Below, piece by piece: positions 6,871 through 20,285 of a stretch of DNA of 32,000 nucleotides. Under the pieces are notes generated by a model, which was given only the letters and a program-made list of their open reading frames with translations, ran no database searches and was not told the DNA's origin. This DNA is from Arthrobacter hankyongi (GTDB lineage: Bacteria > Actinomycetota > Actinomycetes > Actinomycetales > Micrococcaceae). Where the stretch lies: assembly GCF_022012395.1 (NCBI RefSeq), contig NZ_JAKLTQ010000009.1:66323-98322 (forward strand), written 5' to 3'. The first letter of the stretch is position 1; each line of letters begins with the position of its first letter. Made by a program: the position numbers and the translations under genes.

Positions 6871-7948
6871 TGTCCCAGATCCGATCCCGGTTGCGGCGCA
6901 GCAGCAGGAAGAACACCGGGGCGCCGATCAGCGCGGTGAGCACGCCCAGCGGGATTTCCCCCGCTGTCAGGGTGCGCGCCACCGTGTCCACCGCGATGAG
7001 GTAGGCGCCGCCGAGCAGGAAGGAGACCGGCAGCAGCACCCGGTGGTCCGGCCCCACCCACATGCGCGCCAGGTGCGGGATGACCAGGCCCACCCAGGCC
7101 ACCGCGCCGCTGACGGCGACGGCCCCGGCCACAATGAGCGCGACGGAGGCCAGCACCACCCAGCGCAGCGGCCGGGGCCGCACGCCCAGCGCCGCGGCGT
7201 CGTCGTCGCCCAGCGACAGCACGTTGAGGCGCCAGCGCAGGGCCAGCAGCACCGCGGTGCCGGCCAGGACGGGGAGGGCGGCCACCAGCACCTTGGCCGA
7301 GGTGGCCGCCGCCACGCTGCCCAGCAGCCAGAACACGATGGCCGGCAGGGTGGTGAACGGATCGGCCAGGTAGACCACCAGCGAGACCAGTGCGGAGAAG
7401 AAGGACCCGATGACCACTCCGCCGAGCACCACCATGAGCATGGGGGCGCCGCCCCGGCCGGAGGTGACGAGGAAGAGCAGCCCCAGGGCCAGCAGGCCGA
7501 AGCTGAAGGCACCGGTCACCAGCAGCACCGGGCCCAGTCCCAGCAGCAGGGCCAGCGCCCCGCCGAAGGAAGCGCCGGCGGAGACGCCGATGATCTCCGG
7601 GCTGACCAGCGGATTGCGGAACAGGGCCTGCAGGGCCGCCCCGCAGAGTGACAGTCCGCCGCCGACCAGCACCGCCAGCAGGACCCGGGGCAGGCGTACC
7701 AGGAGCACGATGTTCTGCTCGGTGCCGCTGACGGCAGGGTCCGCCGGGAGCAGCCCGGCGAGCAGGATCCGGGCCACATGCCCCACCGGGACGCCGTAGC
7801 GGCCCACGGCCAGGGCCAGCAGCCCGACGCACAGCAGCAGCAGGGCGGCGGCGGCGACCGGGCCGGCCACCCGCACCCGGGCGGCTGCGGTCCCGGCCGT
7901 CGGGCCCGACACCCGGGCCGTGGCCGGGACCACCGGGTCAGGCGGCAC
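6863..7948 (-). CDS. FecCD-family ABC importer permease
   Basis: 361 aa, highly hydrophobic, about 9-10 TM segments. The FecCD-type C-terminus (GEIPLGVLTALIGAPVFFLLL) is present. GTG start at 7948 overlaps the binding-protein stop, and the true start could lie further downstream. Confidence 0.85.
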   Translation of the reverse strand: MPPDPVVPATARVSGPTAGTAAARVRVAGPVAAAALLLLCVGLLALAVGRYGVPVGHVARILLAGLLPADPAVSGTEQNIVLLVRLPRVLLAVLVGGGLSLCGAALQALFRNPLVSPEIIGVSAGASFGGALALLLGLGPVLLVTGAFSFGLLALGLLFLVTSGRGGAPMLMVVLGGVVIGSFFSALVSLVVYLADPFTTLPAIVFWLLGSVAAATSAKVLVAALPVLAGTAVLLALRWRLNVLSLGDDDAAALGVRPRPLRWVVLASVALIVAGAVAVSGAVAWVGLVIPHLARMWVGPDHRVLLPVSFLLGGAYLIAVDTVARTLTAGEIPLGVLTALIGAPVFFLLLRRNRDRIWDSA

Positions 7949-9059
7949 CGAACTGACCGTAGTTGGCCGAGGCGGCGTTGGCGTCCTGCTGCAGGATCCG
8001 GTCGATTTCCGCGTCGGTGGTCCGGTGGGCGTAGAGGAAGTCGAAGTAGTCCGCGACCGTGGCGCGCAGCCCGGACCGGTCCTGCCGCGGGAAGGCGATG
8101 TCCGTGAGCCAGTGCCACATCAGCGCCGACTCCTGGCTCGGCGGATCCCAGCGGTAGCCACCCAGCGGCACCTTGTAGACCCGGCGCGAGCGCACCGCCG
8201 ACACCTGCTGGTACACCGGATCGGCGTAGAGGTCCGCCGGCACGGCGTCGTCGAAGTTGCCCAGCAGGATCACCTCGGGATCCCAGGCCAGCACCTGTTC
8301 CGCCTCGGTGCCCACCATCCCGGAGCCGGCCACACCCCGGTCCCCGGTGGCCGGATTGCTGCCCCCGACCAGCTTGATGTAGAAGTCGTTATAGGTGTTG
8401 TGCCCGGCCACCTTCAGGCCCTGCTTGAAGCGGTTGAAGTACAGGATGCTCGGGCCGGTGCGGCCGGCGGCCAGGGCCTTGATCCGGCGCAGCTCCGCGT
8501 CGCTGCGCGCCTTCATTTCGACGGCGCGTCCGGGCTTGCCCAGCATCGCGGCGAAGAGCGCGGTCCAGGCATCGACGTCCTCCTGCCGGCCGTTGTTCGT
8601 CAGGCTCAGCACCGTCAGCCCGGCGTTCTGCAGAGGCTCGGTCAGCGCGGATTCGTCCCACTGCACCACGACGTCCGGGTCCAGCGCCCGCACGCTCTCC
8701 ACGTTCGGCGTGAAGTCCTCGGTCGCCACCTCGTGCGGGACCCGGAGCGCTGCGGGGAACATCTGGCCCATGATGCCGTCCTTCATGGCGGTCCAGGAGG
8801 CATGGTGCATGCCCGCGAGGTGCTCCGCGCTGCGGTCCACGGCCACCAGCAGCGAGGCGGCGGGCATCGGGATGGTCACTACCCGCGCCGCGGGCCGGTC
8901 CAGCTGCAGGGTGCGGCCCTGCTGGTCCGTCAGGGTGATGCCGCCGCTGGCCGCCGGTGCGGCGGTGCGGGTGCCGCCGCAGGCGGCCAGCGCGGCGGCG
9001 CCGGCGGTGGCCAGCAGGCCGCCGAGCAGCCTCCGGCGCGTTGGATCCTGATGCTCCAT
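7938..9059 (-). CDS. ABC importer substrate-binding lipoprotein (class III periplasmic binding protein, iron-chelate/B12 type)
   Basis: Real start is ATG 9059, with AGGAGG 7 nt upstream. The rest of the 712-aa track ORF is antisense run-through. The N-terminus MEHQDPTRRRLLGGLLATAGAAALAACGG carries a twin-Arg-like signal plus a lipobox Cys. 373 aa. Confidence 0.8.
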   Translation of the reverse strand: MEHQDPTRRRLLGGLLATAGAAALAACGGTRTAAPAASGGITLTDQQGRTLQLDRPAARVVTIPMPAASLLVAVDRSAEHLAGMHHASWTAMKDGIMGQMFPAALRVPHEVATEDFTPNVESVRALDPDVVVQWDESALTEPLQNAGLTVLSLTNNGRQEDVDAWTALFAAMLGKPGRAVEMKARSDAELRRIKALAAGRTGPSILYFNRFKQGLKVAGHNTYNDFYIKLVGGSNPATGDRGVAGSGMVGTEAEQVLAWDPEVILLGNFDDAVPADLYADPVYQQVSAVRSRRVYKVPLGGYRWDPPSQESALMWHWLTDIAFPRQDRSGLRATVADYFDFLYAHRTTDAEIDRILQQDANAASANYGQFGAA

Positions 9060-9236
9060 TCGCGTTCCTCCTGCGCTGGACCGGACCGGGCCGGCATGGG
9101 CGAGCTGCAACAGAATGCCCCCAGCTTCCGCCCGATGCCCGGACCTGTCAACGCATACCGGAGCAGGCTTTTCCTTGTCGGCCTGGGGGCGCGGTGCTAT
9201 GGTCGGGACAAAATTCCCCGCGGAACGAGGCCGGCC

Positions 9237-10019
9237 ATGGTTTCCGACGCTGCCAACGGCGCCCAGTTGTTTGTCCGCTACGCCTATCCGCCCAATGCCC
9301 GCGGCAGCTGCGGGCCGCCGGACAGCGACGCGCTGCTGCACTACGGGCAGTCCGGCGTCACCGACCCGGGGCTGCGCGAGCTGGCCAAGGGCTTCGCCGG
9401 CGCCTGGCCGTACCTGGAGCTCATCGCCGGCTCCACCGGGATCCCGGATCCGCTGGACCACCGGGTGGTCGAGGCGTACTGGGTCGGCAATGCCCTGCTC
9501 GACGCGGTGGGGGTGCGCCACCTCGGCGATTCCATGGAGGAGCGGTTCCGGGCCCGCACCGGCTGGCAGTTTCCGCACCTGATCGAGGGCGTGCTGGCCG
9601 GGGGAGTGCCCCACCACAGTTTCCACGTGTTCGAGATCTACCCGTGGACGGGCCTGCTCGGCGACGACCGCCGGCATGCCACGGCGCTGAACGTGCTGGA
9701 CCGCTGCCGGATCCGCTGGGGCGAGGTGCTGGCGCTCGCCGGCGACGAGGCCGTGGTGCGCTCCCGCCCGCTGGCCTGGGACGGCAGCGCGCTGTCGCTG
9801 GGGCCGGCCGTGGTGGAGACGGCCCGGTATGCGGTGGATGGGACCGGTTTCGTGGCGGACCTGTCGGTGGGGGACGTGGTGTCGCTGCACTGGGACTGGG
9901 TGTGCGACCGGCTCGCCCCCTACCAGCTGCGGCAGCTGCAGCACTTCACCGCCAGGCACCTGAAGATCGCCAATACCGGCGTCGAGCACCGCGGCACCGC
10001 CATCGCCCTCGAAAAGTGA
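9237..10019 (+). CDS. Conserved hypothetical protein, with a C-terminal ~70 aa that is HypC/HupF-like by pattern
   Basis: 260 aa from ATG 9237 with strong GC3 bias. The N-terminus is LFVRYAYPPNARGSCGPP. The C-terminal segment CRIRWGEVLALAGDEAVV...VGDVVSLHWDWV parallels the HypC pattern C-x4-G-x-V...VGDxVLvHvGfA. It is divergent from the ABC operon and lies next to the hydrogenase cluster. Confidence 0.7.
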   Translation: MVSDAANGAQLFVRYAYPPNARGSCGPPDSDALLHYGQSGVTDPGLRELAKGFAGAWPYLELIAGSTGIPDPLDHRVVEAYWVGNALLDAVGVRHLGDSMEERFRARTGWQFPHLIEGVLAGGVPHHSFHVFEIYPWTGLLGDDRRHATALNVLDRCRIRWGEVLALAGDEAVVRSRPLAWDGSALSLGPAVVETARYAVDGTGFVADLSVGDVVSLHWDWVCDRLAPYQLRQLQHFTARHLKIANTGVEHRGTAIALEK

Positions 10020-10084
10020 GCCGCCCGCCCAGACCCCCGCGACGGCGGCTCCGTTTTCATGGTGCTTGAACAGCACCGCCTAAC

Positions 10085-10786: not shown

Positions 10787-11248
10787 CTAGGGTGCCTGGG
10801 GTGCGGCTTCGCCGTTGTCCTCCGGAGGCTTGAGCGCGGTGGCATCCCGGGGTTCCGAGGTTCCGGTGGGCCGGTCGGACGGGGCTTCGTGGGTTCCGGT
10901 GTCCTCACGCCCTGCCTCCTTACCCTCCTGCTTGATCACGTCTTCCCCGCGCCGCGTGGTGCTCTCACCCACTCCCGCAGGCGGCGCTTCCGCGTCGGCC
11001 GGTGTTTCGCCGGATCCGGGCTGGGCCGGTTCCCCGGCCGGCGGCTCACTGCCCCAGGCACGTGAGGTGCCCTCGGCCGGCTCATCCCGGCCGGTGGTCC
11101 GGCCCTCGTAAGGCGGGACGGCGCTGCCCGCCGTGTCCGTCTCGCCACCAGGTCCGGGATTGGTGCCCTTGTTGTAATCGCTGCCCAGCCGGTCGCCCTT
11201 CGGCGCGTTTGACGGGTCGGTCGGTTTGGACGCATCTGCCGGAGACAT
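10787..11248 (-). CDS. Low-complexity, predicted intrinsically disordered acidic Pro/Gly/Glu/Thr-rich protein, last gene of the hydrogenase operon
   Basis: Start is ATG 11248 (MSPADASKPTDPSNAPKGD...), with AAGGAGG 5 nt upstream. 153 aa with no hydrophobic core. It lies 10 nt downstream of the hypC stop. Confidence 0.55.
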   Translation of the reverse strand: MSPADASKPTDPSNAPKGDRLGSDYNKGTNPGPGGETDTAGSAVPPYEGRTTGRDEPAEGTSRAWGSEPPAGEPAQPGSGETPADAEAPPAGVGESTTRRGEDVIKQEGKEAGREDTGTHEAPSDRPTGTSEPRDATALKPPEDNGEAAPQAP

Positions 11249-11258
11249 GGCGCCCTCC

Positions 11259-11552
11259 TTACTGGTCGTTGACTTGGTGGTGGTCGGGCCGGCTCTGGTC
11301 CGGCCCACGGTCCGGGTCCCGTGGCCGCCCCATCAGTTCCAGGCCGTCCATGGCCTGCCCGGCGCCGGCGGCATCCACGCGCTCCAGGGCGAATCCCATA
11401 TGGATTAGGACCCAGCTGCCGGGCTCCGGCGGACCGTCGTCGAGCAGGCCGATGTTGATCCTGCGGTGCACGCCGGCAACATCCACCAGCGCGAGCTGGC
11501 CGCCGTAGCCGTCGACCAGGCCGATCACCTGGCCGGGAATCCCCAGGCACAT
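11259..11552 (-). CDS. hypC: HypC/HybG/HupF-family [NiFe]-hydrogenase maturation chaperone
   Basis: Starts MCLGIPGQVIGLVD..., the invariant N-terminal Met-Cys. Ends ...SWVLIHMGFALERV plus a Pro/Asp tail. 97 aa. GAAGGAGG RBS upstream. The track's 275-aa ORF is run-through into the protease gene frame. Confidence 0.88.
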   Translation of the reverse strand: MCLGIPGQVIGLVDGYGGQLALVDVAGVHRRINIGLLDDGPPEPGSWVLIHMGFALERVDAAGAGQAMDGLELMGRPRDPDRGPDQSRPDHHQVNDQ

Positions 11553-11565
11553 GGCCCTGCCTCCT

Positions 11566-12114
11566 TCATCCGGCCGGTACCTGCCCGGCCAGCAGCTGTT
11601 TGACGGTCTGCATGGCCTGCGGAACGGCCGCCGCGACCGGGTCGGACAGGCCGATTCCTTCGGCCAGGTCGGCCGGCACGCAGCCGACGACGTAGGTGCG
11701 GGGCAGGTTCCCGCCGAGTGACCGCAGCCGGCCCAGGACCGCCGCCGGGTCCATGCCGTGCGGGTCCAGCGCGGCGGCCGGGTCCAGGTCGCCACGGCGC
11801 ACCTGCAGGACCCGGAGGCTGCCCGGCGCGGCGCCCTCGGCCGGCACGGTGTCCACCAGCAGCAGGACATCCACCGGCTTGAGCAGGTCGTAGGCCAGAT
11901 GCATCCCCCGGATGCCGTAGTCCACCACGCGGACCGCGGCACCTCCGGCAGGCACCCCGGCAGGGTCGGCGGCCAGCCGGCGCGCCACCTCCGGGCCGAA
12001 ACCGTCGTCGCGCAGGAACATGTTGCCCACGCCGGCGACCAGGATACGGGCGGCCGGCGGGACGCGGCCGGCCACCGGGCCGGCACCGGCCAGGGACGTG
12101 CGGCGTCGGGCCAT
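11566..12114 (-). CDS. [NiFe]-hydrogenase maturation endopeptidase (HyaD/HybD/HupD family)
   Basis: 182 aa from ATG 12114. Contains ILVAGVGNMFLRDDGFGPEVARRL (the GxGNxxxxDDGxG motif) and a later DPHGMDP (metal-binding His region). Confidence 0.85.
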   Translation of the reverse strand: MARRRTSLAGAGPVAGRVPPAARILVAGVGNMFLRDDGFGPEVARRLAADPAGVPAGGAAVRVVDYGIRGMHLAYDLLKPVDVLLLVDTVPAEGAAPGSLRVLQVRRGDLDPAAALDPHGMDPAAVLGRLRSLGGNLPRTYVVGCVPADLAEGIGLSDPVAAAVPQAMQTVKQLLAGQVPAG

Positions 12115-12119
12115 GGCCC

Positions 12120-12239
12120 CTACATGCTCCGGATCTTGAGGTAGCGCTGGATGTCCGGCAGCGAGCGGAGCCCGATGTAGACGGCGGCCAGGCCGGCGGC
12201 GATGAGCACCGCGGTGGTGATGGTTCCGACGACTTTCAT
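12120..12239 (-). CDS. 39-aa single-pass membrane micropeptide, translationally coupled within the hydrogenase operon
   Basis: MKVVGTITTAVLIAAGLAAVYIGLRSLPDIQRYLKIRSM. Its ATG overlaps the stop of the 473-aa gene (ATGA at 12236..12239), and it ends 5 nt before the protease ATG. It has one clear TM helix and a basic tail. Confidence 0.55.
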   Translation of the reverse strand: MKVVGTITTAVLIAAGLAAVYIGLRSLPDIQRYLKIRSM

Positions 12240-13657
12240 GATGTGTCCTTTCCCTGCCCGGTAGCGGATCCGGCACTGTCCTGCGCGCCGGACTGCGGAC
12301 GGTCCAGCGGTTCCAGTTCCTCGGGGGCGTAGTAGAACGACCGGCCGTAGCCTTCGTGCAGGTCCGCCGCGGGATCCCGTTCGAGCACCAGCCCCACGTG
12401 GGTGCTGCCGTCGACGTCGAAATGCACGCTGGTGACCCGGGCCGTTTGCCCGGCGAAGAACAGGTCCTGGGCGTCGGCGCGCCGCCGGGGATGGACCCGG
12501 ACCCGGCTGCCGCGCGACACCGGCACACCGTCGATGACGACGGCGTCGGTATCCGGCCGCACGCTGGCATCCGCCTCCGGATGCCACCACGGCCTGCCGC
12601 CGCCGGGGTCCGGTCCGGCACCGGACCCGGCCCGCGGGTCGCGCAGCACGCCGTGCAGCTGCTGCAGTTCCTCGGCTGACAAGGCCTCGCACCGCTCGAT
12701 CACCGCCGCGGCGCGCGGATCCGTGGCCCGGGCCTCGGCCTTCTCCTCGTCGGTCAGGGTCAGGACCCGCAGGGTGAGGATTTCGTCGATCTCCGTGGCG
12801 TCGTAGAGGGCCACCGGACTTTCCGGGGCGACGGCGGGGTGGTCATAGAGGATGATGGGCGAGACCAGCAGGACGTCGCTTTGGCCCTCCGGGCCGGCCA
12901 GCACCGGCCAGCAGCGGTGCTGGGCGCAGGCGCGGGCGACCTCCGCGGCCGCCTCCGGCGGCTCCAGCAGGGACAGGAAGTCCCCGTCCCGGAGGCCGAG
13001 CAGCAGATGGGTGCCGATGAACGAGGCGGCGATGGCGTCCGTCCGCCCGCCGGCGGTGGCCGCGCCGGTATTCGTGGCGGCGACCCGCAGCCGCAGCAGC
13101 GGTCCGGCCGGGCCCGTACCGGCGGCGGTGGCATGCAGCCGGACTTCACCGGAGAGGGCCCGGCGCCGGCGCACCAGCCGTCCGGCCACCGTCCCGCCGG
13201 GACCGGCCAAAAGTTCGGTGTCCCTGCCGCCGGGAACCGCCACCGGCACACTCAGCCCCTGCCGTTCCGGATCCTGCAGGTCCGCCAGCGGAAACGGACC
13301 CAGCACGATCTCCTGCTCGACGGCCTCGTCCCAGCTCAGCCAGTGCGAGGGACCGACCGTGAGCTCATCGACCGGCTCGAAGCCGCCGCCGCGGGCCTGT
13401 TCCACGGTCCGTGTCTGCAGCTGCAGGAAGCGCAGGTGCACTTCCACGCCGGCCCCGGGGCCGGCCGCGAGCAGGCAGTCGGCGGACATCCGGGCGTCCT
13501 CCCCGGTGCCGGCTGCGGCCGCCCCGGGCGGGCCGAGGATGCCGAACTGCCAGCGGGCCTGGTTCTTCACTGCCGAGGCCCGGTAGGGGTAGAGCAGGTA
13601 CCCCTCGTAGAGGACCGCGTCCGCGACGGCCCGGGCGAGCAGCAGGTTCGTCTTCAC
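12236..13657 (-). CDS. Conserved hydrogenase-operon protein of unknown function (473 aa)
   Basis: GTG 13657 (VKTNLLLARAVADAVLYEGYLLYPYRASAVKNQARWQFGILGP...) overlaps the upstream stop (GTGA at 13654..13657). GC3 bias is strong throughout. I recognise no catalytic motif. The track's 613-aa ORF is an N-terminal run-through. Confidence 0.75.
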   Translation of the reverse strand: MKTNLLLARAVADAVLYEGYLLYPYRASAVKNQARWQFGILGPPGAAAAGTGEDARMSADCLLAAGPGAGVEVHLRFLQLQTRTVEQARGGGFEPVDELTVGPSHWLSWDEAVEQEIVLGPFPLADLQDPERQGLSVPVAVPGGRDTELLAGPGGTVAGRLVRRRRALSGEVRLHATAAGTGPAGPLLRLRVAATNTGAATAGGRTDAIAASFIGTHLLLGLRDGDFLSLLEPPEAAAEVARACAQHRCWPVLAGPEGQSDVLLVSPIILYDHPAVAPESPVALYDATEIDEILTLRVLTLTDEEKAEARATDPRAAAVIERCEALSAEELQQLHGVLRDPRAGSGAGPDPGGGRPWWHPEADASVRPDTDAVVIDGVPVSRGSRVRVHPRRRADAQDLFFAGQTARVTSVHFDVDGSTHVGLVLERDPAADLHEGYGRSFYYAPEELEPLDRPQSGAQDSAGSATGQGKDTS

Positions 13658-14325
13658 GGCTGGATCCCGCCGGCCGGGGCGGTTCCGGTGGGGGCCGCGG
13701 CTGCGGCCTGCAGCAATTCTTCGACGGCGGCCTCCCAGGAGGTGTGGCCGCGGACCGACCTGTAGCGGGCCAGGGCGGCCAGTACCTCCCGGTCCAGCCG
13801 GAGCCAGCCGGCGTTGGGGAAGGTTAGGTCCATCAGCCGGCGCCAGACGGCCACCGGGAGCTGGTAGGACGCGGCCAGGTTCCACGGCACCTGTTCGACG
13901 CCGAATCCCTGCCGGCCCCGGGTGAACACGGTGCCGGAGAACAGCAGTTCCAGCGGGATGGCGCCGTCCCGGAGCGCATTGAGATACTTGGCGGCGGCCA
14001 CGTCGAAGTCGAAGGTGCAGGGCAGCGGCAGGTCCGTCTCGGTGGCCGAGCTGAAGCCCTGCACCATGGTGCTGCATTGGAGCCAGAGGAAGGACTTGAG
14101 CGTCTCGGGCCAGCGGCGGCGCCCGCCGAAAAGGTCCAGCAGCCCGTCTTCCTCCGCCGGCGCATAGCCGCGGCGCTGCGGCAGGATGCGGACCTGGCAG
14201 CGCAGGGCGATGGCATGGACCGCGGTGCCGGTGGACTCGGTGATCCGCAGCCGGGCGGTCAGCTGCGGTGCCGCCGCGTAGGGCTCGGGCTGGATGTCCA
14301 GGACGCTGAAGGCCAGTTCCGTCAT
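13654..14325 (-). CDS. Conserved hydrogenase-operon protein of unknown function (223 aa)
   Basis: ATG 14325 (MTELAFSVLDIQPEPYAAAPQLTARLRITE...) overlaps the upstream stop (ATGA at 14322..14325). It appears soluble and has no recognisable motif. Confidence 0.75.
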   Translation of the reverse strand: MTELAFSVLDIQPEPYAAAPQLTARLRITESTGTAVHAIALRCQVRILPQRRGYAPAEEDGLLDLFGGRRRWPETLKSFLWLQCSTMVQGFSSATETDLPLPCTFDFDVAAAKYLNALRDGAIPLELLFSGTVFTRGRQGFGVEQVPWNLAASYQLPVAVWRRLMDLTFPNAGWLRLDREVLAALARYRSVRGHTSWEAAVEELLQAAAAAPTGTAPAGGIQP

Positions 14326-15017
14326 CGGACCGTCCCTTCGGCCGACTCGCCGCGGCGTGCCGAAACCGGCCTGCTGCGGCTGCCGATCTGCTCGAAGAAC
14401 GCGGCCAGTGCCGTGCGCGCTTGGCCGCCGCCGTCGAACCCGTGCCAGACGCGCCGCAGCTGCCCCACCAGTTCGTAGCACGCGTCCACCGGCACCAGGT
14501 AGCACAGGGCCTGCGGAAGACCGGGGCCCGGGCCCCGGATAAGCAGGGCTTCGGTGTCGTCCGCGGCCAGGGACAGCCCGGGGTTGCGGGCCAGCACGGC
14601 GTCCCAGGCGGCCAGCGGCAGTTCGGATTCCGTCGCCCCGGCGGGTCCCGGGTAGAAGGCCACGCTGCGGTTGAGCGTGGAACTGCGGAAGAAGAACGCC
14701 AGGCCTACCGGAATCTCCAGCTCATCCCACTGTCCCGGTCCCAGTTCGAAGTCGGGGAAGGACAGATAGCGCTCCGGCACGGACCGGTAGCGCAGCTGCG
14801 CGGTGCTGTCGGTGAACAGCAGGTAGCACGGCCGGCAGGTGCACAGGATGGCCCGGCTTTGCAGGTCCACGACGTGCTGGTGCGGATCGGCGATGGCGGT
14901 GCCGCACATTTCGCAGCGTTCACCGGCGGCCGCTGCCGGTTTGGCAGCCGCGATGCGGCGCAGCAGCGCGATCGGCATGCTGCCGGGGTGGCCTGTCTGT
15001 CCTGGAGGCTGGTTCAT
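14322..15017 (-). CDS. Conserved hydrogenase-operon protein of unknown function with a Cys-rich metal-binding motif (231 aa)
   Basis: ATG 15017 is preceded by AAGGAGG. The motif CEMC-x20-CTCRPC (CxxC...CxCxxC) lies near the N-terminus. An alternative start is M14 (nt 14978). Confidence 0.75.
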   Translation of the reverse strand: MNQPPGQTGHPGSMPIALLRRIAAAKPAAAAGERCEMCGTAIADPHQHVVDLQSRAILCTCRPCYLLFTDSTAQLRYRSVPERYLSFPDFELGPGQWDELEIPVGLAFFFRSSTLNRSVAFYPGPAGATESELPLAAWDAVLARNPGLSLAADDTEALLIRGPGPGLPQALCYLVPVDACYELVGQLRRVWHGFDGGGQARTALAAFFEQIGSRSRPVSARRGESAEGTVR

Positions 15018-15033: not shown

Positions 15034-15999
15034 TTATCCTCGGGATCCCGCCGCGGCCGGAACGGCCACGGACATCACGCCGCCGCGGACCAGCAGCGGC
15101 AGCGGGTCCAGGTGCATGTTCCGGTCCTCCAGGCAGACGCCTGCCTGCCGCACATCGAAGTGGCTGCGGCAGGTGGGGCAGCGCAGCAGCCCGCCGCCGG
15201 CCGGTGCCGCCAGTGCGCGCTGCAGCGTGGCCCCGGCCAGGGAGTGCGTGCAGCGCGGGCAATAATCCCGGTAGGCATACACATCCGGCCCGATCCGGCA
15301 GGCCAGCAGGGGGTAGCTGCCGATCAGGAACCCCGCAGCCTCCCCGGATTCCAGCCCGGCAAATTCGGGCACCGGTTCCCAGACGGCGCCGGCCTGCGCC
15401 GGCACGCCGCCCCCGGCCTGCCCGGGCGGCCTACCTTCCGGGCCGCCGGTTTGCTGGTTGACCCGGACCAGCAGCGCCTCGACCGGAATCACCGCCTGTG
15501 CGGCAGGCACATCCTCCTCCACCACTTCGATGCCGGTCACCTCGGGGGCCGCGGCTTCGATCGCGTCCTGCACGGCGAGCCGGAGGGTCACCGGGGAGGA
15601 GGGGCACCCGTGGCAGGTGCCCAGCAGCCGCAGCCGGACCACGCCTTCGGCGCTGATGTCCAGCAATTCGACATTGCCGCCATGCGAGCCCAGGTAGGGC
15701 CGGACGCTGTCCAGCGCCGCGGCCACCCGGGTTTCCACATCCTGCGGATGCAGGCCGTGGATCAGCAGGAGCCCGGAGACCAGGTCATCGGCCACCAGCG
15801 CCTGCCGGATCCCGCTGCCGGCGGCCCCGCTGCCGTCGAGGATGTCCAGGATCCGCTGCAGGCCGGCACCATAGAGGTCGGTCACCTGGCGCACCAGTTC
15901 CTCGGCGCGCTCGCGGGCCACCGGCCCGCCTGCCCCGAGCGCATCGAGGAGGGTGCTGATCCTCTCCCCGGCCGGGCCAAGCCGGTCCTCGCCGTGCAC
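15034..15999 (-). CDS. hhyE: HhyE-like putative iron-sulfur protein: a NifU C-terminal-type domain fused to a Rieske-like / Cys4 module
   Basis: GTG 15999 lies 3 nt after the hhyL stop. The NifU-like segment is VRPYLGSHGGNVELLDISAEGVVRLRLLGTCHGCPSS. The C-terminal module is CPRCTH-x22-CPTCRSH (CxH...CxxH embedded in CxxC pairs). 321 aa. Confidence 0.75.
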   Translation of the reverse strand: MHGEDRLGPAGERISTLLDALGAGGPVARERAEELVRQVTDLYGAGLQRILDILDGSGAAGSGIRQALVADDLVSGLLLIHGLHPQDVETRVAAALDSVRPYLGSHGGNVELLDISAEGVVRLRLLGTCHGCPSSPVTLRLAVQDAIEAAAPEVTGIEVVEEDVPAAQAVIPVEALLVRVNQQTGGPEGRPPGQAGGGVPAQAGAVWEPVPEFAGLESGEAAGFLIGSYPLLACRIGPDVYAYRDYCPRCTHSLAGATLQRALAAPAGGGLLRCPTCRSHFDVRQAGVCLEDRNMHLDPLPLLVRGGVMSVAVPAAAGSRG

Positions 16000-16002
16000 G
16001 GG

Positions 16003-17796
16003 CTACTCGCCGGTCAGGGACTGGGTCGGGGAGTGCAGCTTCTCCAGCGTCCGGCCGTTGCCCAGGTACATGTGGACGCCGCAGGGCAGGCAGGGATCGA
16101 AGCTGCGCACCGTGCGCATGATGTCGATGCCCTTGAAGTTCTCGCGGTCATTCTCCTCAAAGATCGGCTGTCCCTGGACGGCATCTTCGTAGGGACCGGA
16201 GACACCGTTGGAATCGGTGGGGCTGGCATTCCACGGGGTCGGCGGGTACGGGTGGTAGTTGGCGATCTTGCCGTCGCGGATCACCATATGGTGGGACAGG
16301 ACCCCGCGGACGGCTTCGGTGAAGCCGCAGCTGGCCGCCTCGTCCGGCACCTCGAAGGTTTCCCAGGTCTTGGTCCGGCCGGCCCGGATCTCCTCCAGCG
16401 CCCGTTCGGCGAAATGTAGCGCGGCGGCTGCCGCGTAAGCCTGGAAGTAGGTCCGCGCCCGGTTGCGCTCAAGCGTGTTGCTCCACTGCGGGATCTTCCA
16501 CTCGAAGCTGACCGGGCCCTTCAGGGCCGTCTTGGGCAGGTTGATCTGCACGCTGTGCCCGGTGGCCTTCAGGTAGCCGATGTCCACCAGGCCGGCCAGC
16601 GCGGTGGCCCAGAGCCGGGCCAGCGGGCCGCCGCCGGTGTCCAGCGCGAGGTTGCTTTCGCCGTCGAACCAGCGGGGGGACATGACCCAGCTGTACTTGT
16701 CCGCGAGGTCGCGTTTCTGCGGCTTCGGGTTGGTGTGCTGGTTCCAGGGGTGGCGCCGGTCCACCGGGTTGCCCAGCGGGTCGGTGGTGACGAACATTTC
16801 CTGGTCCGCCCAGTCCTCGTAGTAGGAGGAACCGAGCAGGATCCGGATGCCCAGGTTGATCCGCACCAAATCCGTGGTGACCAGCTTGCCGTCCACGACG
16901 ACGCCGGGGGTGACGAACATTTTCCGGCCCCACTCGGTCATGTCCTTGTAGTCGAAGTTGCAGAAGTCCGGGTCCTGGAAGGAACCCCAGCAGCCCAGCA
17001 GCGTCCGCCGCAGCCCGACCTGCTCGTACCCCGGCAGCGCCTCGTAGAAGAAATCGAACAGGTCGTCGTGCATCGGCACGACCTTCTTCATGAACTCCAC
17101 GTAGCGCATCAGCCGGGTGAGGTAGTCGGTCATCAGCTGGATGGTGGCCACGGTCCCCACGCCGCCGGGATAGAGGGTGGACGGATGCACATGGCGTCCC
17201 TCCATCAGGCAGAACATCTCCCGGGTGAGCCGGCTGACCTGCAGCGCCTCGCGGTAGAACTCGCCGGTGAACGGGTTCAGCGAGCGCATGATGTCGGCAA
17301 TCGTGCGGTAGCCGTGCTCCGCTTCGTGCGGGGCACGGGTGTTCTCGGCCCGGGCCAGCACCGACGGGTTGGTCTCGGACACCATTTTCTCGCAGTAGTC
17401 CACGCCGACCAGGTTCTCCTGGAAGATGTTGTGGTCGAACATGTACTCCGCCGCTTCGCCCAGGTTCACGATCCATTCGCCCAGGTGCGGCGGCTTCACC
17501 CCGTAGGCCATGTTCTGGGCGTAGCACGAGCAGGTCGCGTGGTTGTCACCGCAGATGCCGCAGATGCGGCTGGTGATGAAATGGGCGTCCCGCGGGTCCT
17601 TGCCCTTCATGAAGAGCGAGTAGCCGCGGAAGATCGACGAGGTGCTGCGGCATTCGACGACCTGCCGGTTGGCGAAGTCGATCTTGGTATAGATGCCCAG
17701 ACTGCCGACGATCCGGGTGATGGGGTCCCACGCCATCTCCACCAGGTCGTTGGGGGCGCTGCCCTGGTTTTCCTGGGACGGCATCGTTGAGGTCAT
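16003..17796 (-). CDS. hhyL: [NiFe]-hydrogenase large subunit, group 1h/5 (high-affinity Hhy type)
   Basis: 597 aa from ATG 17796 (MTSTMPSQENQ...). The L1 signature FITSRICGICGDNH and the L2 signature RSFDPCLPCGVHMY are the group-5/1h-specific forms. The C-terminal extension after the L2 His is the substrate for the protease. Confidence 0.93.
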   Translation of the reverse strand: MTSTMPSQENQGSAPNDLVEMAWDPITRIVGSLGIYTKIDFANRQVVECRSTSSIFRGYSLFMKGKDPRDAHFITSRICGICGDNHATCSCYAQNMAYGVKPPHLGEWIVNLGEAAEYMFDHNIFQENLVGVDYCEKMVSETNPSVLARAENTRAPHEAEHGYRTIADIMRSLNPFTGEFYREALQVSRLTREMFCLMEGRHVHPSTLYPGGVGTVATIQLMTDYLTRLMRYVEFMKKVVPMHDDLFDFFYEALPGYEQVGLRRTLLGCWGSFQDPDFCNFDYKDMTEWGRKMFVTPGVVVDGKLVTTDLVRINLGIRILLGSSYYEDWADQEMFVTTDPLGNPVDRRHPWNQHTNPKPQKRDLADKYSWVMSPRWFDGESNLALDTGGGPLARLWATALAGLVDIGYLKATGHSVQINLPKTALKGPVSFEWKIPQWSNTLERNRARTYFQAYAAAAALHFAERALEEIRAGRTKTWETFEVPDEAASCGFTEAVRGVLSHHMVIRDGKIANYHPYPPTPWNASPTDSNGVSGPYEDAVQGQPIFEENDRENFKGIDIMRTVRSFDPCLPCGVHMYLGNGRTLEKLHSPTQSLTGE

Positions 17797-17824: not shown

Positions 17825-18883
17825 TTACCAGGTGCGCCTGGCGCCGGTGAGGAGCTCACGGCCGGGCCGGCGCCACTTCGGCTCCTGGTCCAAGGTGTGG
17901 ACGGTGATCTCGCGCAGGGCACGGATCGACGAACCGTAGGCCCGGATGGCGGTGGTGGAGAGCTTGCCGCCGGGCGGTTCGTCCATGAACGGCATGAACT
18001 TGTCCGGGAAGCCCGGCATGGTGCAGCCGATGCAGATCCCGCCGACGTTGGGGCAGCCGCCGATCCCGTTCATCCAGCCGCGCTTGGGCACGTTGCATTT
18101 GACCACCGGACCCCAGCAGCCCAGCTTCACGATGCACTTGGGCGAGCCGTATTCGGTGGCGAAGTCGCCCTGCTCGTAGTAGCCGGCCCGATCGCAGCCT
18201 TCGTGCACCGTCTGGCCGAACAGCCAGGTGGGCCGCAGCGCCTCGTCCAGCGGAATCATCGGGGCCTGGCCGGTGGCCTGGTAGAGCAGGTAGGTCATGG
18301 TTTCGGACAGGTTGTCCGGCTGGATCGGGCAGCCGGGGACGCAGACGATCGGGATGCCGGCCTTGGACTTCCAGCCATAGCCGAGGTAGTCCGGCACGCC
18401 CATGGCGCCGGTCGGGTTGCCCGCCATGGCATGGATGCCGCCATAGGTGGCGCAGGTGCCGGCGGCGATGATGGCCGTGGCCTTGGGCGCCAGACGGTCC
18501 AGCCATTCGCTGGTGGTGATCGGCTGCCCGGTGTCCAGGTCGTTGCCGAAACCGCACCAGTAGCCGCCGGGGTCGTGCAGCTTTTCGTTGGGGATCGATC
18601 CCTCGACCACCAGGACAAACGGTTCGAGTTCGCCGCGGTCGGCCTTGCGGAACCATTCCAGGAAATCGTCGGCGCCTTCCTGCGGGCCGCACTCGAAGTC
18701 GATCAGCGGCCAGTGCATGGCGATCCGGGGCAGTCCCGGCAGGGCACCGAGGGCGATTTCCTCGACGGAGGGCTGGGTTGCCGCGGTCAGGGCGACCGAA
18801 TCGCCGTCGCAGCTGAGCCCGGCGTTGATCCAGAGGACGTGGATCAGGGTCTCTTCGGCCTGAAGTTCGATGTCTGTTGGCAT
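17825..18883 (-). CDS. hhyS: [NiFe]-hydrogenase small subunit, group 1h/5, with no Tat signal
   Basis: The preferred start is ATG 18883 (MPTDIELQ...), with GAGGAGG 5 nt upstream. The track start at 18904 is also possible. The N-terminal cluster motif is WINAGLSCDGDS, with Asp in place of the second Cys of the usual CxxC. Further Cys ligands are GTCATYGG, VPGCP, KLGCWGPVVKCNVP and GICIGCTMPGFPD. There is no RRxF twin-arginine leader. Confidence 0.92.
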   Translation of the reverse strand: MPTDIELQAEETLIHVLWINAGLSCDGDSVALTAATQPSVEEIALGALPGLPRIAMHWPLIDFECGPQEGADDFLEWFRKADRGELEPFVLVVEGSIPNEKLHDPGGYWCGFGNDLDTGQPITTSEWLDRLAPKATAIIAAGTCATYGGIHAMAGNPTGAMGVPDYLGYGWKSKAGIPIVCVPGCPIQPDNLSETMTYLLYQATGQAPMIPLDEALRPTWLFGQTVHEGCDRAGYYEQGDFATEYGSPKCIVKLGCWGPVVKCNVPKRGWMNGIGGCPNVGGICIGCTMPGFPDKFMPFMDEPPGGKLSTTAIRAYGSSIRALREITVHTLDQEPKWRRPGRELLTGARRTW

Positions 18884-18922
18884 TGGGGCCTCCTCGGGAG
18901 CCATGCCGTCCCGGAACCGCTG

Positions 18923-19792
18923 TCAGCGGGCGTCTGACAGTGCCTCCGGCCTGTTGTGTGGCCGGTGCCCGGCCGTGCCTGCCGCCGGGGCGCCGGGTGT
19001 GTCCGTGAGCCAGCCGTACCAGCCGTCCAGGCCGTCGCCGGCGGTAGCCGAGACGACCAGGACCTCGACGTGCGGATTGAGCATCCGCGCCTGGCGGATG
19101 CAGTCCTCGACGTCGAACTTAACGTAAGGGAGCAGATCCGCCTTGTTGATCAGGATCAGGTCGGCGGCCATGAACATATGGGGGTACTTGCGCGGTTTGC
19201 CATCACCTTCCGTCACCGAGATGATCACGACCTTGGCCGTCTCGCCGAGGTCGAACAGGGCGGGGCATACCAGGTTGCCCACGTTTTCGATGAACAGCGT
19301 CGAGCCGGCCGCCGGGTCGAGGGCGTCCAGGCCCCGCCGGAGCATCTGCGCATCCAGGTGGCAGCCGGCACCGGTGTTGATCTGGACGACCGGGCGGCCC
19401 GCGGCCCGGATCCGGTCCGCGTCCAGGGATGTTTCCTGGTCCCCTTCGATGACCTGGATGTCCAGGTCGTCGCCGAGGTCCCGGATGGTCCGCTCCAGCA
19501 GCGTGGTCTTGCCGGCTCCCGGGGAACTCATCAGGTTGAAGGCCCGGATCCCGCGGCCCTCGAGCCAGCCGCGGTTGCGGGCGGCGAGCAGTTCGTTCTT
19601 GGCCAGCAGGCGCTCTTCCAGCGCAATCGTTTCGTGGCCGCCGCCGTCGTGGCCGTCTTGCCCAGGATGCTCATGCGGATGGCTGTGCGGGTGGTCGTGG
19701 TCGTGCGCGTGCCCGTGTTCCCCTGTCTGGACGCCGGCTGCGTCCGTGATCCTGACGCCGGCGTCGTCGCTGCATCCGCACGTTGAACACAT
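18923..19792 (-). CDS. hypB: Hydrogenase nickel-incorporation GTPase HypB with a His-rich Ni-storage stretch
   Basis: 289 aa. N-terminal MCSTCGC (CxxCGC high-affinity Ni site). His-rich run GEHGHAHDHDHPHSHPHEHPGQDGHDGGGH. P-loop SSPGAGKTTLL. ENVGNLVCP and NKADL GTPase motifs. Confidence 0.93.
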   Translation of the reverse strand: MCSTCGCSDDAGVRITDAAGVQTGEHGHAHDHDHPHSHPHEHPGQDGHDGGGHETIALEERLLAKNELLAARNRGWLEGRGIRAFNLMSSPGAGKTTLLERTIRDLGDDLDIQVIEGDQETSLDADRIRAAGRPVVQINTGAGCHLDAQMLRRGLDALDPAAGSTLFIENVGNLVCPALFDLGETAKVVIISVTEGDGKPRKYPHMFMAADLILINKADLLPYVKFDVEDCIRQARMLNPHVEVLVVSATAGDGLDGWYGWLTDTPGAPAAGTAGHRPHNRPEALSDAR

Positions 19793-19795
19793 AGC

Positions 19796-20125
19796 TCACA
19801 CCACTTCCACTGAGGTGACCGCCAGCTCGCGCCCGCCGGTAATTTCGACGTCGGCGCTGCCGCACGGGCACAGCGGGATCAGGTCCGGCAGGGTGAAGTC
19901 CAGTCCGCAGCCGCGGCAGCGGCCCCGGCCCTCGGGCTCGTCGATCAGCAGTTCGGCCCCGGCCAGCGGGGTGCCGTCCGTGACCAGTTCAAAGCAAAAA
20001 CGCATCGCGTCCGGCAATACCCCGGACAGGCGGCCGACTTTCAGGCGCACACCGGTCACCTGGCGCTCGCCGGTCCGGCCGACGACGGCGTCGAGAAGGC
20101 TCTGGGTGATGGAGAGTTCGTGCAT
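19796..20125 (-). CDS. hypA: Hydrogenase nickel-insertion metallochaperone HypA
   Basis: 109 aa from ATG 20125, with the canonical MHE N-terminus (MHELSITQSLLDAV). Zn site CRGCG...CPCG. The GTG at 20137 given in the track would add 4 residues. Confidence 0.9.
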   Translation of the reverse strand: MHELSITQSLLDAVVGRTGERQVTGVRLKVGRLSGVLPDAMRFCFELVTDGTPLAGAELLIDEPEGRGRCRGCGLDFTLPDLIPLCPCGSADVEITGGRELAVTSVEVV

Positions 20126-20155
20126 CGGGCGCCGCACCTCGAATCAACACGCTTC

Positions 20156-20182: not shown

Positions 20183-20285
20183 ACCACAATACAAATCGGG
20201 CACCGGCCGACTGTTCCCCTCGGACCGGGGCGGACCTAGGATGTTCAGCATCAACGGCGACGCCAACTTCCAAGGAGGCACGGCC

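What the first reader, a model, noticed from the sequence alone, without database searches (positions are those of the whole stretch)
12120..15017. Block of three unknown proteins plus a micropeptide, translationally welded into the core of the Hhy hydrogenase operon
Four ORFs of 231, 223, 473 and 39 aa lie between the structural/electron-transfer genes (hhyS-hhyL-hhyE) and the maturation protease. Their stops and starts literally overlap: ATGA at 14322-14325, GTGA at 13654-13657, ATGA at 12236-12239. That pattern indicates stoichiometric co-translation.

All four have strong GC3 coding bias but no catalytic domain I can name. The only visible handle is a CxxC-x20-CxCxxC metal motif in the 231-aa protein.

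Group 1h enzymes oxidise atmospheric H2 and must be assembled in air and coupled to the quinone pool. The factors that do this are not established, and this block is the obvious candidate for an undescribed assembly, tethering or O2-protection module.
Basis: partly seen in the sequence, partly recalled or inferred. Interest (0 to 1): 0.7.

Follow-up and report, generated by a model that had tools for sequence, protein, structure and literature searches.

The report
Uncharacterised helper genes of air-hydrogen hydrogenase
Four tightly linked genes inside the operon for the enzyme that lets soil bacteria burn atmospheric hydrogen are real and always travel with that enzyme. They are already catalogued as "unknown function" families, and here they look most like enzyme-assembly helpers plus a tiny membrane peptide.

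Summary
Four minus-strand genes of 231, 223, 473 and 39 aa lie between hhyS-hhyL-hhyE and the hupD protease, with ATGA/GTGA/ATGA overlaps exactly where stated.

They are not undescribed. They are DUF5947, DUF6084, a family with no Pfam model, and DUF6893. All four are annotated in RefSeq (Arthrobacter hankyongi I2-34). The literature knows the three large ones as hhaABC, PHG067-069 or MSMEG_2717-15, all "unknown function".

They are strictly tied to group 1h hydrogenases:
- All 81 genome loci show the same gene order.
- In PLSDB, 13 of 13 plasmids with a 1h large subunit carry DUF5947, against 0 of 120 with other [NiFe] hydrogenases.

New clues from this work:
- The 473-aa family occurs fused to the HupD maturation protease in at least 7 lineages, and to DUF6084 in one.
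- All three large proteins diverge as fast as Hyp proteins, not as slowly as HhyS/L.
- DUF5947 has eight invariant Cys/His residues.
- The 39-aa peptide is the only transmembrane element in the operon. In some lineages it is paired with a YceI-like lipid/quinone-binding protein.

Best reading: a Hhy-specific maturation complex with the protease, plus a possible membrane anchor. No fold matches were found, and function remains unproven. Interest is moderate.

The parts
14322..15017 (-). ORF-A, 231 aa. DUF5947 family (HhaA / PHG067 / MSMEG_2717 homologue). N-terminal Cys/His motif (C35, C38, H46, H48, C59, C61, C64) plus C180; C-terminal alpha/beta domain.
   Evidence: Pfam PF19372 scores 232.9 bits against a cutoff of 25. 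The eight Cys/His are invariant across Actinobacteria, C. necator and Methylocystis. In the AF2 model, residues 81-220 have pLDDT around 90 and the N-terminus is below 50. Foldseek finds no PDB match with E<0.2. RefSeq WP_237821629.1.
13654..14325 (-). ORF-B, 223 aa. DUF6084 family (HhaB / PHG068 homologue). No metal motif.
   Evidence: Pfam PF19562 scores 309 bits. ATGA overlap with A. A DUF6084-ORF-C fusion protein (P0482, 765 aa) has 28 cluster members on many contigs. No PDB relative by sequence or profile. RefSeq WP_237821626.1.
12236..13657 (-). ORF-C, 473 aa, GTG start. Large family with no Pfam model (HhaC / PHG069 homologue). Conserved N-terminal motif YEGYxLYPYR; beta-rich core (about residues 40-260); conserved acidic helical segment (about 267-336); SH3-like C-terminal domain (about 370-450).
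   Evidence: The family has 3959 representatives at 50% clustering with E<=1e-3. No Pfam or NCBIfam hit. AF2 model has mean pLDDT 72, with the core around 90. Foldseek matches only the C-terminal domain, to PetP/SH3 (7r0w_V, 2n5u), plus a weak DrmA hit. C-terminal fusions to the HycI/HupD protease occur in 7 of 10 long representatives tested, and recur in independent assemblies.
12120..12239 (-). ORF-D, 39 aa. DUF6893 small protein: one transmembrane helix followed by the conserved basic tail S-[ILV]-P-D-x-x-R-Y-[LM]-[KR]-x-R-x-M-stop.
   Evidence: Pfam PF21833 scores 55.4 bits against a cutoff of 24.6. Found in 76 of 81 genome loci; 39 aa in 72 of those 76. Kyte-Doolittle 19-residue maximum is 2.03, the only operon product above 1.6. 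A motif scan of metagenomes gave 120 contigs, 105 with Hhy neighbours and at least 4 more in hyp clusters. RefSeq WP_372463709.1 'DUF6893 family small protein'.
15034..15999 (-). Context: HhyE, a NifU-like putative iron-sulfur protein with a Cys-rich C-terminal region.
   Evidence: Pfam NifU hit, 3e-20. Sequence shown.
16003..17796 (-). Context: HhyL, the group 1h [NiFe] large subunit, with a 22-aa C-terminal extension after the CGVH motif.
   Evidence: Pfam NiFeSe_Hases. L1 motif TSRICGICGDNH and L2 motif SFDPCLPCGVH, as quoted for group 1h/5 in PMC5364354.
17825..18904 (-). Context: HhyS, the small subunit.
   Evidence: Pfam NiFe_hyd_SSU_C and Oxidored_q6.
11566..12114 (-). Context: HupD/HycI-type maturation endopeptidase. 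Its start is 5 nt after D's stop.
   Evidence: Pfam HycI hit, 1e-11. Junction read directly.
11259..11552 (-). Context: HypC/HupF-family chaperone.
   Evidence: Pfam HupF_HypC hit, 1e-18. Sequence shown.

Best explanation
What it is. The four ORFs are the accessory gene set dedicated to group 1h (Hhy) hydrogenases. They are HhaA (DUF5947), HhaB (DUF6084), HhaC (no Pfam model) and a DUF6893 micropeptide. They are co-transcribed and translationally coupled with hhyE upstream and hupD-hypC downstream.

Proposed mechanism:
1. HhaB and HhaC act as a physical unit with the HupD endopeptidase on the HhyL precursor. They would form a Hhy-specific chaperone or scaffold for the last steps of large-subunit maturation and subunit assembly in air. 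This is inferred from the gene fusions.
2. HhaA contributes a Cys6His2 metal centre, either for metal or Fe-S handling or for redox support of that process. The metal site is inferred from invariant residues; its chemistry is unknown.
3. The 39-aa peptide is a single-pass membrane protein. Its conserved cytoplasmic tail docks the machinery or the finished enzyme at the membrane. The transmembrane character follows from hydropathy; the docking is inferred.

What is shown and what is inferred. Shown here: real genes, strict linkage to 1h hydrogenases, conserved coupling, the fusions, and the absence of any known fold or domain. The functions themselves are inferred.
For: Linkage to group 1h:
- All 81 loci found through ORF-C have the order HhyS-HhyL-HhyE-A-B-C-(D)-HupD. 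Genes are missing only where a contig ends.
- All 65 full-length HhyL in those loci carry the 1h L1 motif, and 64 the L2 motif.
- In PLSDB, the 13 records with a 1h-type HhyL are exactly the 13 with DUF5947. None of the 120 records with other [NiFe] large subunits has it.
- The block is conserved in C. necator pHG1 and in Methylocystis, with 4-8 nt overlaps between genes.

Link to maturation:
- ORF-C is fused to the HycI/HupD protease in 7 representative clusters. Identical-length copies come from independent JGI, NCBI and Logan assemblies, plus 2 metagenome contigs.
- A DUF6084-ORF-C fusion has 28 cluster members. One MAG shows an A-B fusion.
- Between the window and distant taxa, A, B and C are 37-58% identical. 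That matches HupD, HypC and HypA (31-64%), not HhyS/L (65-83%).
- The block sits directly upstream of hupD-hypC. No terminator-like site lies on the coding strand anywhere from hypA through hypC.
- The -4 overlap is the modal junction for HhyE/A, A/B, B/C and C/D across the loci.

Literature:
- Deleting HhyE abolishes activity even with an artificial acceptor, so assembly roles for operon proteins are considered possible (PMC6883350).
- hhaABC are up-regulated together with hhyLS in T. roseum (PMC6776052).

Micropeptide D. [quoted passage not shown] C. necator lacks D, and its enzyme is described as cytoplasmic (PMC4377017).
Against: - There is no direct functional data for any of the four proteins.
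- Fusion of neighbouring, overlapping genes is weaker evidence than fusion of unlinked genes. One frameshift can create it, although recurrence across assemblies argues these are real.
- A, B and C have no detectable similarity to any known hydrogenase maturation factor or to any solved fold. 'Chaperone' is therefore by context only.
- In T. roseum the genes are reported on the structural operon, not the maturation operon (PMC6776052).
- A's Cys/His motif could equally be an electron-transfer cluster. PHG067 was proposed as an electron acceptor (PMC6883350, citing Schafer 2013).
- Methylacidiphilum's 1h cluster is described as hhyS-hhyL-hupD only (PMC5364354), so the block may not be universally required.
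- No structure could be predicted for B, and the metal-binding region of A was modelled with low confidence.
Confidence: 0.5

Rival explanations
1. The proteins are subunits or partners of the working enzyme rather than assembly factors. HhaA carries an Fe-S (or similar) cluster that accepts electrons from HhyS/HhyE. HhaB and HhaC form a scaffold, functionally analogous to HucM of Huc. The micropeptide anchors the complex so that electrons reach menaquinone.
For: - A has eight invariant Cys/His residues.
- PHG067/MSMEG_2717 has been proposed as an electron acceptor (PMC6883350).
- The genes follow the structural genes directly, and are reported co-regulated with them in T. roseum (PMC6776052).
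- D is a conserved transmembrane peptide, and in 13 loci it is adjacent or close to a YceI-like polyisoprenoid/quinone-binding protein.
- No anchor or quinone-coupling subunit is known for Hhy (PMC13332983).
- The C-terminal domain of C has the SH3-like fold of PetP, a peripheral subunit of an electron-transfer complex.
Against: - The Cys/His spacing matches no canonical ferredoxin, Rieske or rubredoxin pattern, and Pfam detects none even at E<=10.
- A, B and C diverge about twice as fast as HhyS/L.
- C is repeatedly fused to the maturation protease, which is not part of the mature enzyme.
- From my own knowledge, not checked here: purified and crystallised C. necator AH contains only the small and large subunits.
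- On native gels only HhyL, HhyS and HhyE were reported to co-localise (PMC6883350).
Confidence: 0.27
2. The block is an O2-protection or repair module. It would keep the active site or Fe-S clusters reduced, or rebuild them, during synthesis and turnover in air.
For: The association is exclusive to an O2-insensitive hydrogenase class. A has a Cys/His-rich site. [quoted passage not shown]
Against: No similarity was found to rubredoxin, peroxidase, thioredoxin or any redox-repair family. Nothing in the data speaks specifically to O2. It also overlaps largely with the maturation explanation.
Confidence: 0.1
3. The ORFs are hitch-hiking or unrelated genes (for example of mobile or phage origin) that merely sit inside the operon.
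For: Only a sub-threshold Pfam hit of C to Phage_TAC_7 (E 0.002, 18.5 bits against a cutoff of 25), and weak Foldseek hits to viral glycoproteins.
Against: Synteny with hhyL is perfect across Actinomycetota, Proteobacteria and other phyla. Composition and GC3 are native. Overlaps are conserved. The viral hits have TM-scores below 0.1.
Confidence: 0.02

Closest known systems
hhaABC / PHG067-PHG069 / MSMEG_2717-2715: conserved hypothetical genes of group 1h (group 5) hydrogenase operons
   Same: Same families, same order and same position between hhyE and hupD. C. necator pHG1 has NifU-DUF5947-DUF6084-hypothetical(476 aa)-protease with overlapping genes. Identity to the window proteins is 39-45%. 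Function is recorded as unknown in PMC4377017, PMC6776052, PMC6883350 and PMC13332983.
   Different: The window (Actinomycetota) carries the extra DUF6893 micropeptide between C and hupD. No D-like ORF was found in the fetched C. necator or Methylocystis loci. Its HhyE is also longer (321 aa against 192 aa).
Isoenzyme-specific accessory proteins of O2-tolerant membrane-bound [NiFe] hydrogenases (HoxL/O/Q/R/T/V of R. eutropha; HyaE/HyaF/HybE of E. coli)
   Same: Operon-encoded helpers with no catalytic domain, specific to one hydrogenase, lying between the structural genes and the protease/hyp genes. One of them (HoxR) is a Cys-rich metal protein needed for aerobic maturation (PMC6883350).
   Different: No sequence or profile similarity could be found: Pfam detects none of those families. 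Profile comparison with the operon's own Hyp proteins, HupD and HhyS/L/E is negative. Group 1h enzymes lack the Tat signal that several of those chaperones handle (my own knowledge).
HucM (Huc, group 2a) and CoxG-type quinone-delivering or membrane-tethering partners of atmospheric trace-gas oxidases
   Same: Conceptually, these are a missing link between a soluble-looking oxidase and membrane menaquinone. D is a membrane peptide, and in some lineages it is followed by a YceI-like isoprenoid-binding protein.
   Different: No homology. D is only 39 aa. The window has no YceI-like gene. No lipid-binding fold was demonstrated in A or C: the LolB, CoxG and Bet v1 hits are insignificant.
PetP/SH3-like small subunits
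   Same: The C-terminal domain of ORF-C (about residues 370-450) superposes on PetP (7r0w_V TMt 0.77; 2n5u TMt 0.68; probability 1.0).
   Different: This is a fold-level resemblance of a 75-residue domain only, with 12-18% identity. It says only that the domain is probably a protein-docking module.

Membership tests
Pfam DUF5947 (PF19372) | Whole-protein HMM score above the gathering threshold (25 bits) | tested here: met
   232.9 bits, E 2e-69, covering profile positions 1-176 of 177.
Pfam DUF6084 (PF19562) | HMM score above the gathering threshold (25 bits) | tested here: met
   309.2 bits, E 2e-92, covering profile positions 1-210 of 213.
Pfam DUF6893 (PF21833) | HMM score above the gathering threshold (24.6 bits); small protein of about 40 aa | tested here: met
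   55.4 bits, with the full 32-position profile matched. 39 aa. RefSeq name 'DUF6893 family small protein'.
HhaC / PHG069 family (no curated model) | Full-length homology to the hypothetical protein encoded between DUF6084 and hupD in 1h operons | tested here: met
   39% identity over 99% of the length to C. necator PHG069. Same position in 81 of 81 loci.
Group 1h [NiFe] hydrogenase operon (hhy) | Large subunit with L1 TSRICGICGDNH and L2 SFDPCLPCGVH motifs | tested here: met
   Both motifs are present in the window's HhyL. They are the motifs quoted for group 1h/5 in PMC5364354.
Group 1h [NiFe] hydrogenase operon (hhy) | Accessory block co-occurs with 1h and not with other [NiFe] groups | tested here: met
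   PLSDB gives 13 of 13 against 0 of 120. Genome loci give 81 of 81. The genome sample is biased towards Actinomycetota (best 80 of at least 594 hits).
Rubredoxin-type maturation factor (HoxR/HupI-like) | Rubredoxin domain: two CxxCG / CPxCG knuckles recognised by the Pfam Rubredoxin model | tested here: not met
   No Rubredoxin hit for ORF-A even at E<=10. The motif is CxxC...HxH...CxCxxC, with only a partial resemblance to the knuckles.
Canonical Hyp/Hup maturation proteins (HypA, HypB, HypC/HupF, HupD) or a HupK/HoxV-like large-subunit paralogue | Profile-level homology to those families | tested here: not met
   hhalign of the A, B and C profiles against profiles of HypA, HypB, HypC, HupD, HhyS, HhyL and HhyE built from the 81 loci gives probabilities below 4% in every case.
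Iron-sulfur electron-transfer protein (the role proposed for PHG067) | Binds a redox-active Fe-S cluster | not testable with these tools
   Only the invariant Cys6His2 set is seen. AF2 gives low confidence for this region. UV-vis, EPR or metal analysis is needed.
Membrane anchor subunit of a hydrogenase | Integral membrane segment | tested here: met
   D has a hydrophobic stretch of about 20 residues with KD19 2.03.
Membrane anchor subunit of a hydrogenase | Physical association with the enzyme | not testable with these tools

The most novel reading that the evidence does not exclude
The DUF6893 micropeptide is the long-sought membrane anchor of actinobacterial Hhy, and in some lineages it works with a YceI-like quinone-binding partner. 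Separately, HhaB-HhaC-HupD form a previously unrecognised maturation machine specific to 1h enzymes, built from folds with no solved relatives, and HhaA supplies a new type of Cys6His2 metal site.
Probability: 0.25. Interest if true: 0.7.

Novelty: already known. Interest (0 to 1): 0.42.

Why it matters
Group 1h hydrogenases are a main biological sink for atmospheric H2. As of 2026 it is still unknown how they are matured in air, attached to the membrane and coupled to the quinone pool (PMC13332983, PMC6883350).

This block is the only conserved, hydrogenase-specific, unexplained coding capacity in the operon. The field is already aware of the genes, so finding them again in an Arthrobacter genome is not news.

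What this analysis adds is a set of concrete, testable leads:
- protease fusions pointing to the maturation step;
- a conserved 39-aa transmembrane peptide missing from the PLSDB gene table of the one plasmid record checked;
- pairing of that peptide with a YceI-like protein in some lineages;
- an invariant Cys6His2 site in DUF5947;
- apparently novel folds.

Tried and rejected
- NCBIfam gave no hit for any of the four proteins.
- PDB sequence searches (phmmer and profiles) gave only noise:
  - LolB for A, E 0.5;
  - CarS for C, E 0.04;
  - acyl carrier proteins for the acidic helix of C, E 0.24-0.75, with no conserved Ser at the attachment position;
  - nothing for B.
- Foldseek against PDB:
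  - A has nothing below E 0.2. GAF, Bet v1 and CoxG-like hits are insignificant, so the lipid-binding idea for A is dropped.
  - C has one weak hit to DrmA (TMq 0.22) and matches to herpesvirus gB with TM below 0.1, both rejected as meaningless. Only the SH3/PetP-like C-terminal domain is credible.
- Foldseek against BFVD gave nothing for C.
- The Phage_TAC_7 hit of C is below Pfam's threshold and was rejected.
- A, B and C are not paralogues of one another, nor of the Hyp, HupD or Hhy proteins.
- The alignment-based scan for D in metagenomes failed because the alignment had no stretch conserved enough to search with. It was replaced by a degenerate DNA pattern.
- The Greening 2015 review that coined hhaABC is not held in the library.


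Full report
OBSERVATION

The window is about 70% G+C. Its sequence is that of Arthrobacter hankyongi I2-34: ORF-C is 100% identical to LVY72_13325, and exact look-ups of A, B and D return RefSeq proteins of that species.

On the minus strand, the ORFs read in order as follows:
- hypA, 19796-20137
- hypB, 18923-19792
- hhyS, 17825-18904
- hhyL, 16003-17796
- hhyE (NifU-like), 15034-15999
- ORF-A, 14322-15017
- ORF-B, 13654-14325
- ORF-C, 12236-13657
- ORF-D, 12120-12239
- hupD, 11566-12114
- hypC, 11259-11552

A nickel permease gene (NicO) is transcribed divergently at 20241-21362.

hupD starts 5 nt after D's stop.

GC3 is 0.85-0.95 for the four ORFs. No terminator-like site lies on the coding strand across the operon.

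HhyL carries the group 1h signatures TSRICGICGDNH and SFDPCLPCGVH, plus a 22-residue C-terminal extension of the kind removed by the endopeptidase (motifs as given in PMC5364354).

WHAT THE FOUR PROTEINS ARE

Pfam places A in DUF5947 (233 bits), B in DUF6084 (309 bits) and D in DUF6893 (55 bits). C has no model; its only hit is a sub-threshold one to Phage_TAC_7. NCBIfam has nothing for any of them.

The families are large:
- at least 6900 clusters at 90% identity for A;
- 3300 for B;
- 3959 representatives of C at 50% identity.

The literature already knows these genes:
- 'conserved hypothetical proteins hhaABC' on the structural operon of Thermomicrobium roseum, up-regulated 5.5-fold on starvation (PMC6776052);
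[quoted passage not shown] A July 2026 paper still calls them hypothetical. It states that no membrane-anchoring subunit of the 1h enzyme has been identified (PMC13332983). The block is therefore catalogued but functionally unexplained, not undescribed.

IS IT TIED TO GROUP 1h?

Yes, in both directions, as far as I could test.

I scanned one genome per species with a diverse ORF-C alignment. This found at least 594 genomes. In the best 80 loci plus pHG1, the order HhyS-HhyL-HhyE-A-B-C-(D)-HupD is invariant, and genes are missing only where a contig ends. All 65 full-length HhyL copies carry the 1h L1 motif, and 64 the L2 motif.

In PLSDB, exactly 13 plasmids carry a 1h-type HhyL (72-85% identity). 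They are the same 13 that carry DUF5947. The 120 plasmids with other [NiFe] large subunits (below 28% identity) have none.

C. necator pHG1 and a Methylocystis plasmid show the same block with 4-8 nt overlaps.

One caveat applies. The genome sample is dominated by Actinomycetota. A Methylacidiphilum 1h cluster is described as hhyS-hhyL-hupD only (PMC5364354), so the block may not be universal.

TRANSLATIONAL COUPLING

The -4 overlap is the modal junction across the loci:
- HhyE/A: 47 of 75
- A/B: 46 of 78
- B/C: 44 of 80
- C/D: 23 of 76, with a further 18 at -13

The structural genes hhyS/hhyL are separated by 24-95 nt in the spacings seen more than once. This supports tight translational coupling of the accessory genes. 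It does not by itself show equal stoichiometry.

CLUES TO MECHANISM

(a) Gene fusions. I tested ten unusually long ORF-C relatives. Seven carry a C-terminal HycI/HupD maturation-protease domain and one carries an N-terminal DUF6084.

The fusions recur with identical lengths in independent JGI, NCBI and Logan assemblies. For example, the 645-aa protein includes MDQ1361239.1 from an Acidimicrobiaceae MAG, and the 765-aa B-C fusion has 28 members on many contigs. Two further in-frame C-HupD fusions and one A-B fusion occur among the fetched loci. The A-B case is a single MAG and could be a frameshift artefact.

Fusions of adjacent overlapping genes are easy to make, so this is moderate evidence. 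It links A-B-C to the protease, which is not part of the mature enzyme.

(b) Evolutionary rate. I compared the window with C. necator, Methylocystis and two other distant loci.

| Proteins | Identity to the window |
|---|---|
| HhyS, HhyL | 65-83% |
| A, B, C | 37-58% |
| HupD, HypC, HypA | 31-64% |
| HhyE | 34-44% |

A, B and C are thus indistinguishable from the maturation factors in this respect.

(c) Metal site in A. C35, C38, H46, H48, C59, C61, C64 and C180 are invariant from Actinobacteria to Alpha- and Betaproteobacteria. The pattern fits no canonical Fe-S or rubredoxin signature, and Pfam finds none.

(d) Structure.
- AF2 gives C a confident beta-rich core (residues about 40-260, pLDDT around 90), a poorly modelled but very conserved acidic helical segment, and a small C-terminal beta domain.
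- Foldseek finds only an SH3/PetP-like match for the C-terminal domain and nothing credible for the core.
- A's C-terminal alpha/beta domain is confident (pLDDT around 90), but has no PDB match with E below 0.2.
- Profile searches of the PDB, and profile-profile comparisons with every other protein family of the operon, are negative.

On present evidence the folds have no solved relatives.

(e) The micropeptide.
- D is found in 76 of the 81 loci, and in 72 of those 76 it is exactly 39 aa. It has a variable hydrophobic helix and a conserved tail, S-[ILV]-P-D-x-x-R-Y-[LM]-[KR]-x-R-x-M-stop.
- It is the only operon product with a transmembrane-grade hydropathy peak.
Of these, 105 have ORF-C and/or HupD next to the peptide. 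The other 15 also encode D-like peptides, at least four of them in hyp clusters.
- In 13 loci a YceI-like gene (PF04264, a polyisoprenoid-binding family) lies just downstream. In most of these it directly follows the D-like peptide. Where upstream context is visible, the order is C-HupD-D-YceI.
- D is absent from the C. necator and Methylocystis loci. The C. necator enzyme is described as cytoplasmic (PMC4377017), whereas the mycobacterial enzyme is membrane-associated without a known anchor (PMC13332983).
- D is absent from the PLSDB gene table of the M. intracellulare plasmid, in a 126-nt gap between annotated genes.

BEST EXPLANATION AND RIVALS

I favour a two-part accessory module (confidence about 0.5).

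First, HhaB and HhaC, with HhaA's metal site, work with HupD on the HhyL precursor as a 1h-specific maturation and assembly complex. Second, the DUF6893 peptide provides a membrane attachment point.

The main rival (about 0.27) is that A is an electron-transfer protein and that B, C and D are scaffold and anchor subunits of the working enzyme. The Cys/His site, the position next to the structural genes and the D-YceI pairing speak for it. The protease fusions, the fast divergence and the two-subunit composition of purified C. necator enzyme (my own knowledge) speak against it.

An O2-protection role (about 0.1) has no specific support. Hitch-hiking genes are excluded by the synteny data.

COMPARISON AND NOVELTY

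By membership, these are ordinary members of DUF5947, DUF6084, the PHG069 family and DUF6893, in an ordinary group 1h operon.

They work like the isoenzyme-specific accessory proteins of other O2-tolerant hydrogenases (HoxL/O/Q/R/T/V, HyaE/F). They are not members of those families: every homology test was negative.

The finding is therefore 'already known' as an entity, sitting on a real open question. The modest new content is the set of leads listed above. The micropeptide-as-anchor idea and the B-C-protease complex are the most novel readings still open (probability about 0.25).

Noticed in passing
window 10787-11248 (-), just after hypC; also L008, L027, L042, L049, L051, L060, L064, L075 and L077, between D and hupD: An acidic, low-complexity, probably disordered protein with the conserved motif PPYEGR and a later G/T-R-[AG]-ED-like motif recurs in Hhy operons at variable positions. 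It lies after hypC in the window, and between the micropeptide and hupD in nine other genomes. No Pfam hit.
   Followed up: partly
L089, L194, L101, L119, L122, L085, L126, L121, L188, L181, L149, L068 (about 4352-4906), L069 (12587-13081): A YceI-like (PF04264) gene follows a shorter D-like micropeptide and/or hupD in a subset of Hhy/hyp clusters, typically in the order C-HupD-D-YceI. This hints at a membrane or quinone link. The window has no YceI-like gene.
   Followed up: partly
L203 7530-7649 (M. intracellulare plasmid NZ_CP012886.2): The 39-aa DUF6893 ORF is present, but it is not listed in the PLSDB gene table, which shows a 126-nt unannotated gap between the hypothetical protein and the protease. 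The micropeptide is missed in this record's table and may be missed in others (only this record was checked).
   Followed up: yes
L001 5423-6478, L082 3505-4584, L203 1128-2183: The 1h small subunit HhyS is named 'hydrogenase expression protein HypE' in the RefSeq annotation of three unrelated records. This looks like a systematic misnomer, and PMC13332983 remarks on it too.
   Followed up: partly
L051 about 8664-9950: A and B appear as one continuous reading frame (429 codons) in a single long-read MAG. This is either a genuine A-B fusion or a frameshift error.
   Followed up: no
window 6130-10076 (-) and 20241-21362 (+): A FecCD permease, an ABC ATPase and a 712-aa ORF flank the operon on one side. 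In the 712-aa ORF only the C-terminal third matches Peripla_BP_2. A divergently transcribed NicO nickel permease lies on the other side, suggesting that metal supply genes are clustered with the hydrogenase. The roughly 450-aa N-terminal extension of the binding-protein ORF has no Pfam hit and may reflect an over-long ORF call.
   Followed up: no
window 15034-15999 (-), HhyE residues about 245-290: Besides the NifU domain, HhyE has a C-terminal Cys/His-rich segment (YCPRCTH...LRCPTCRSH). The C. necator homologue is much shorter (192 aa) and aligns to only about half of the window's HhyE.
   Followed up: no
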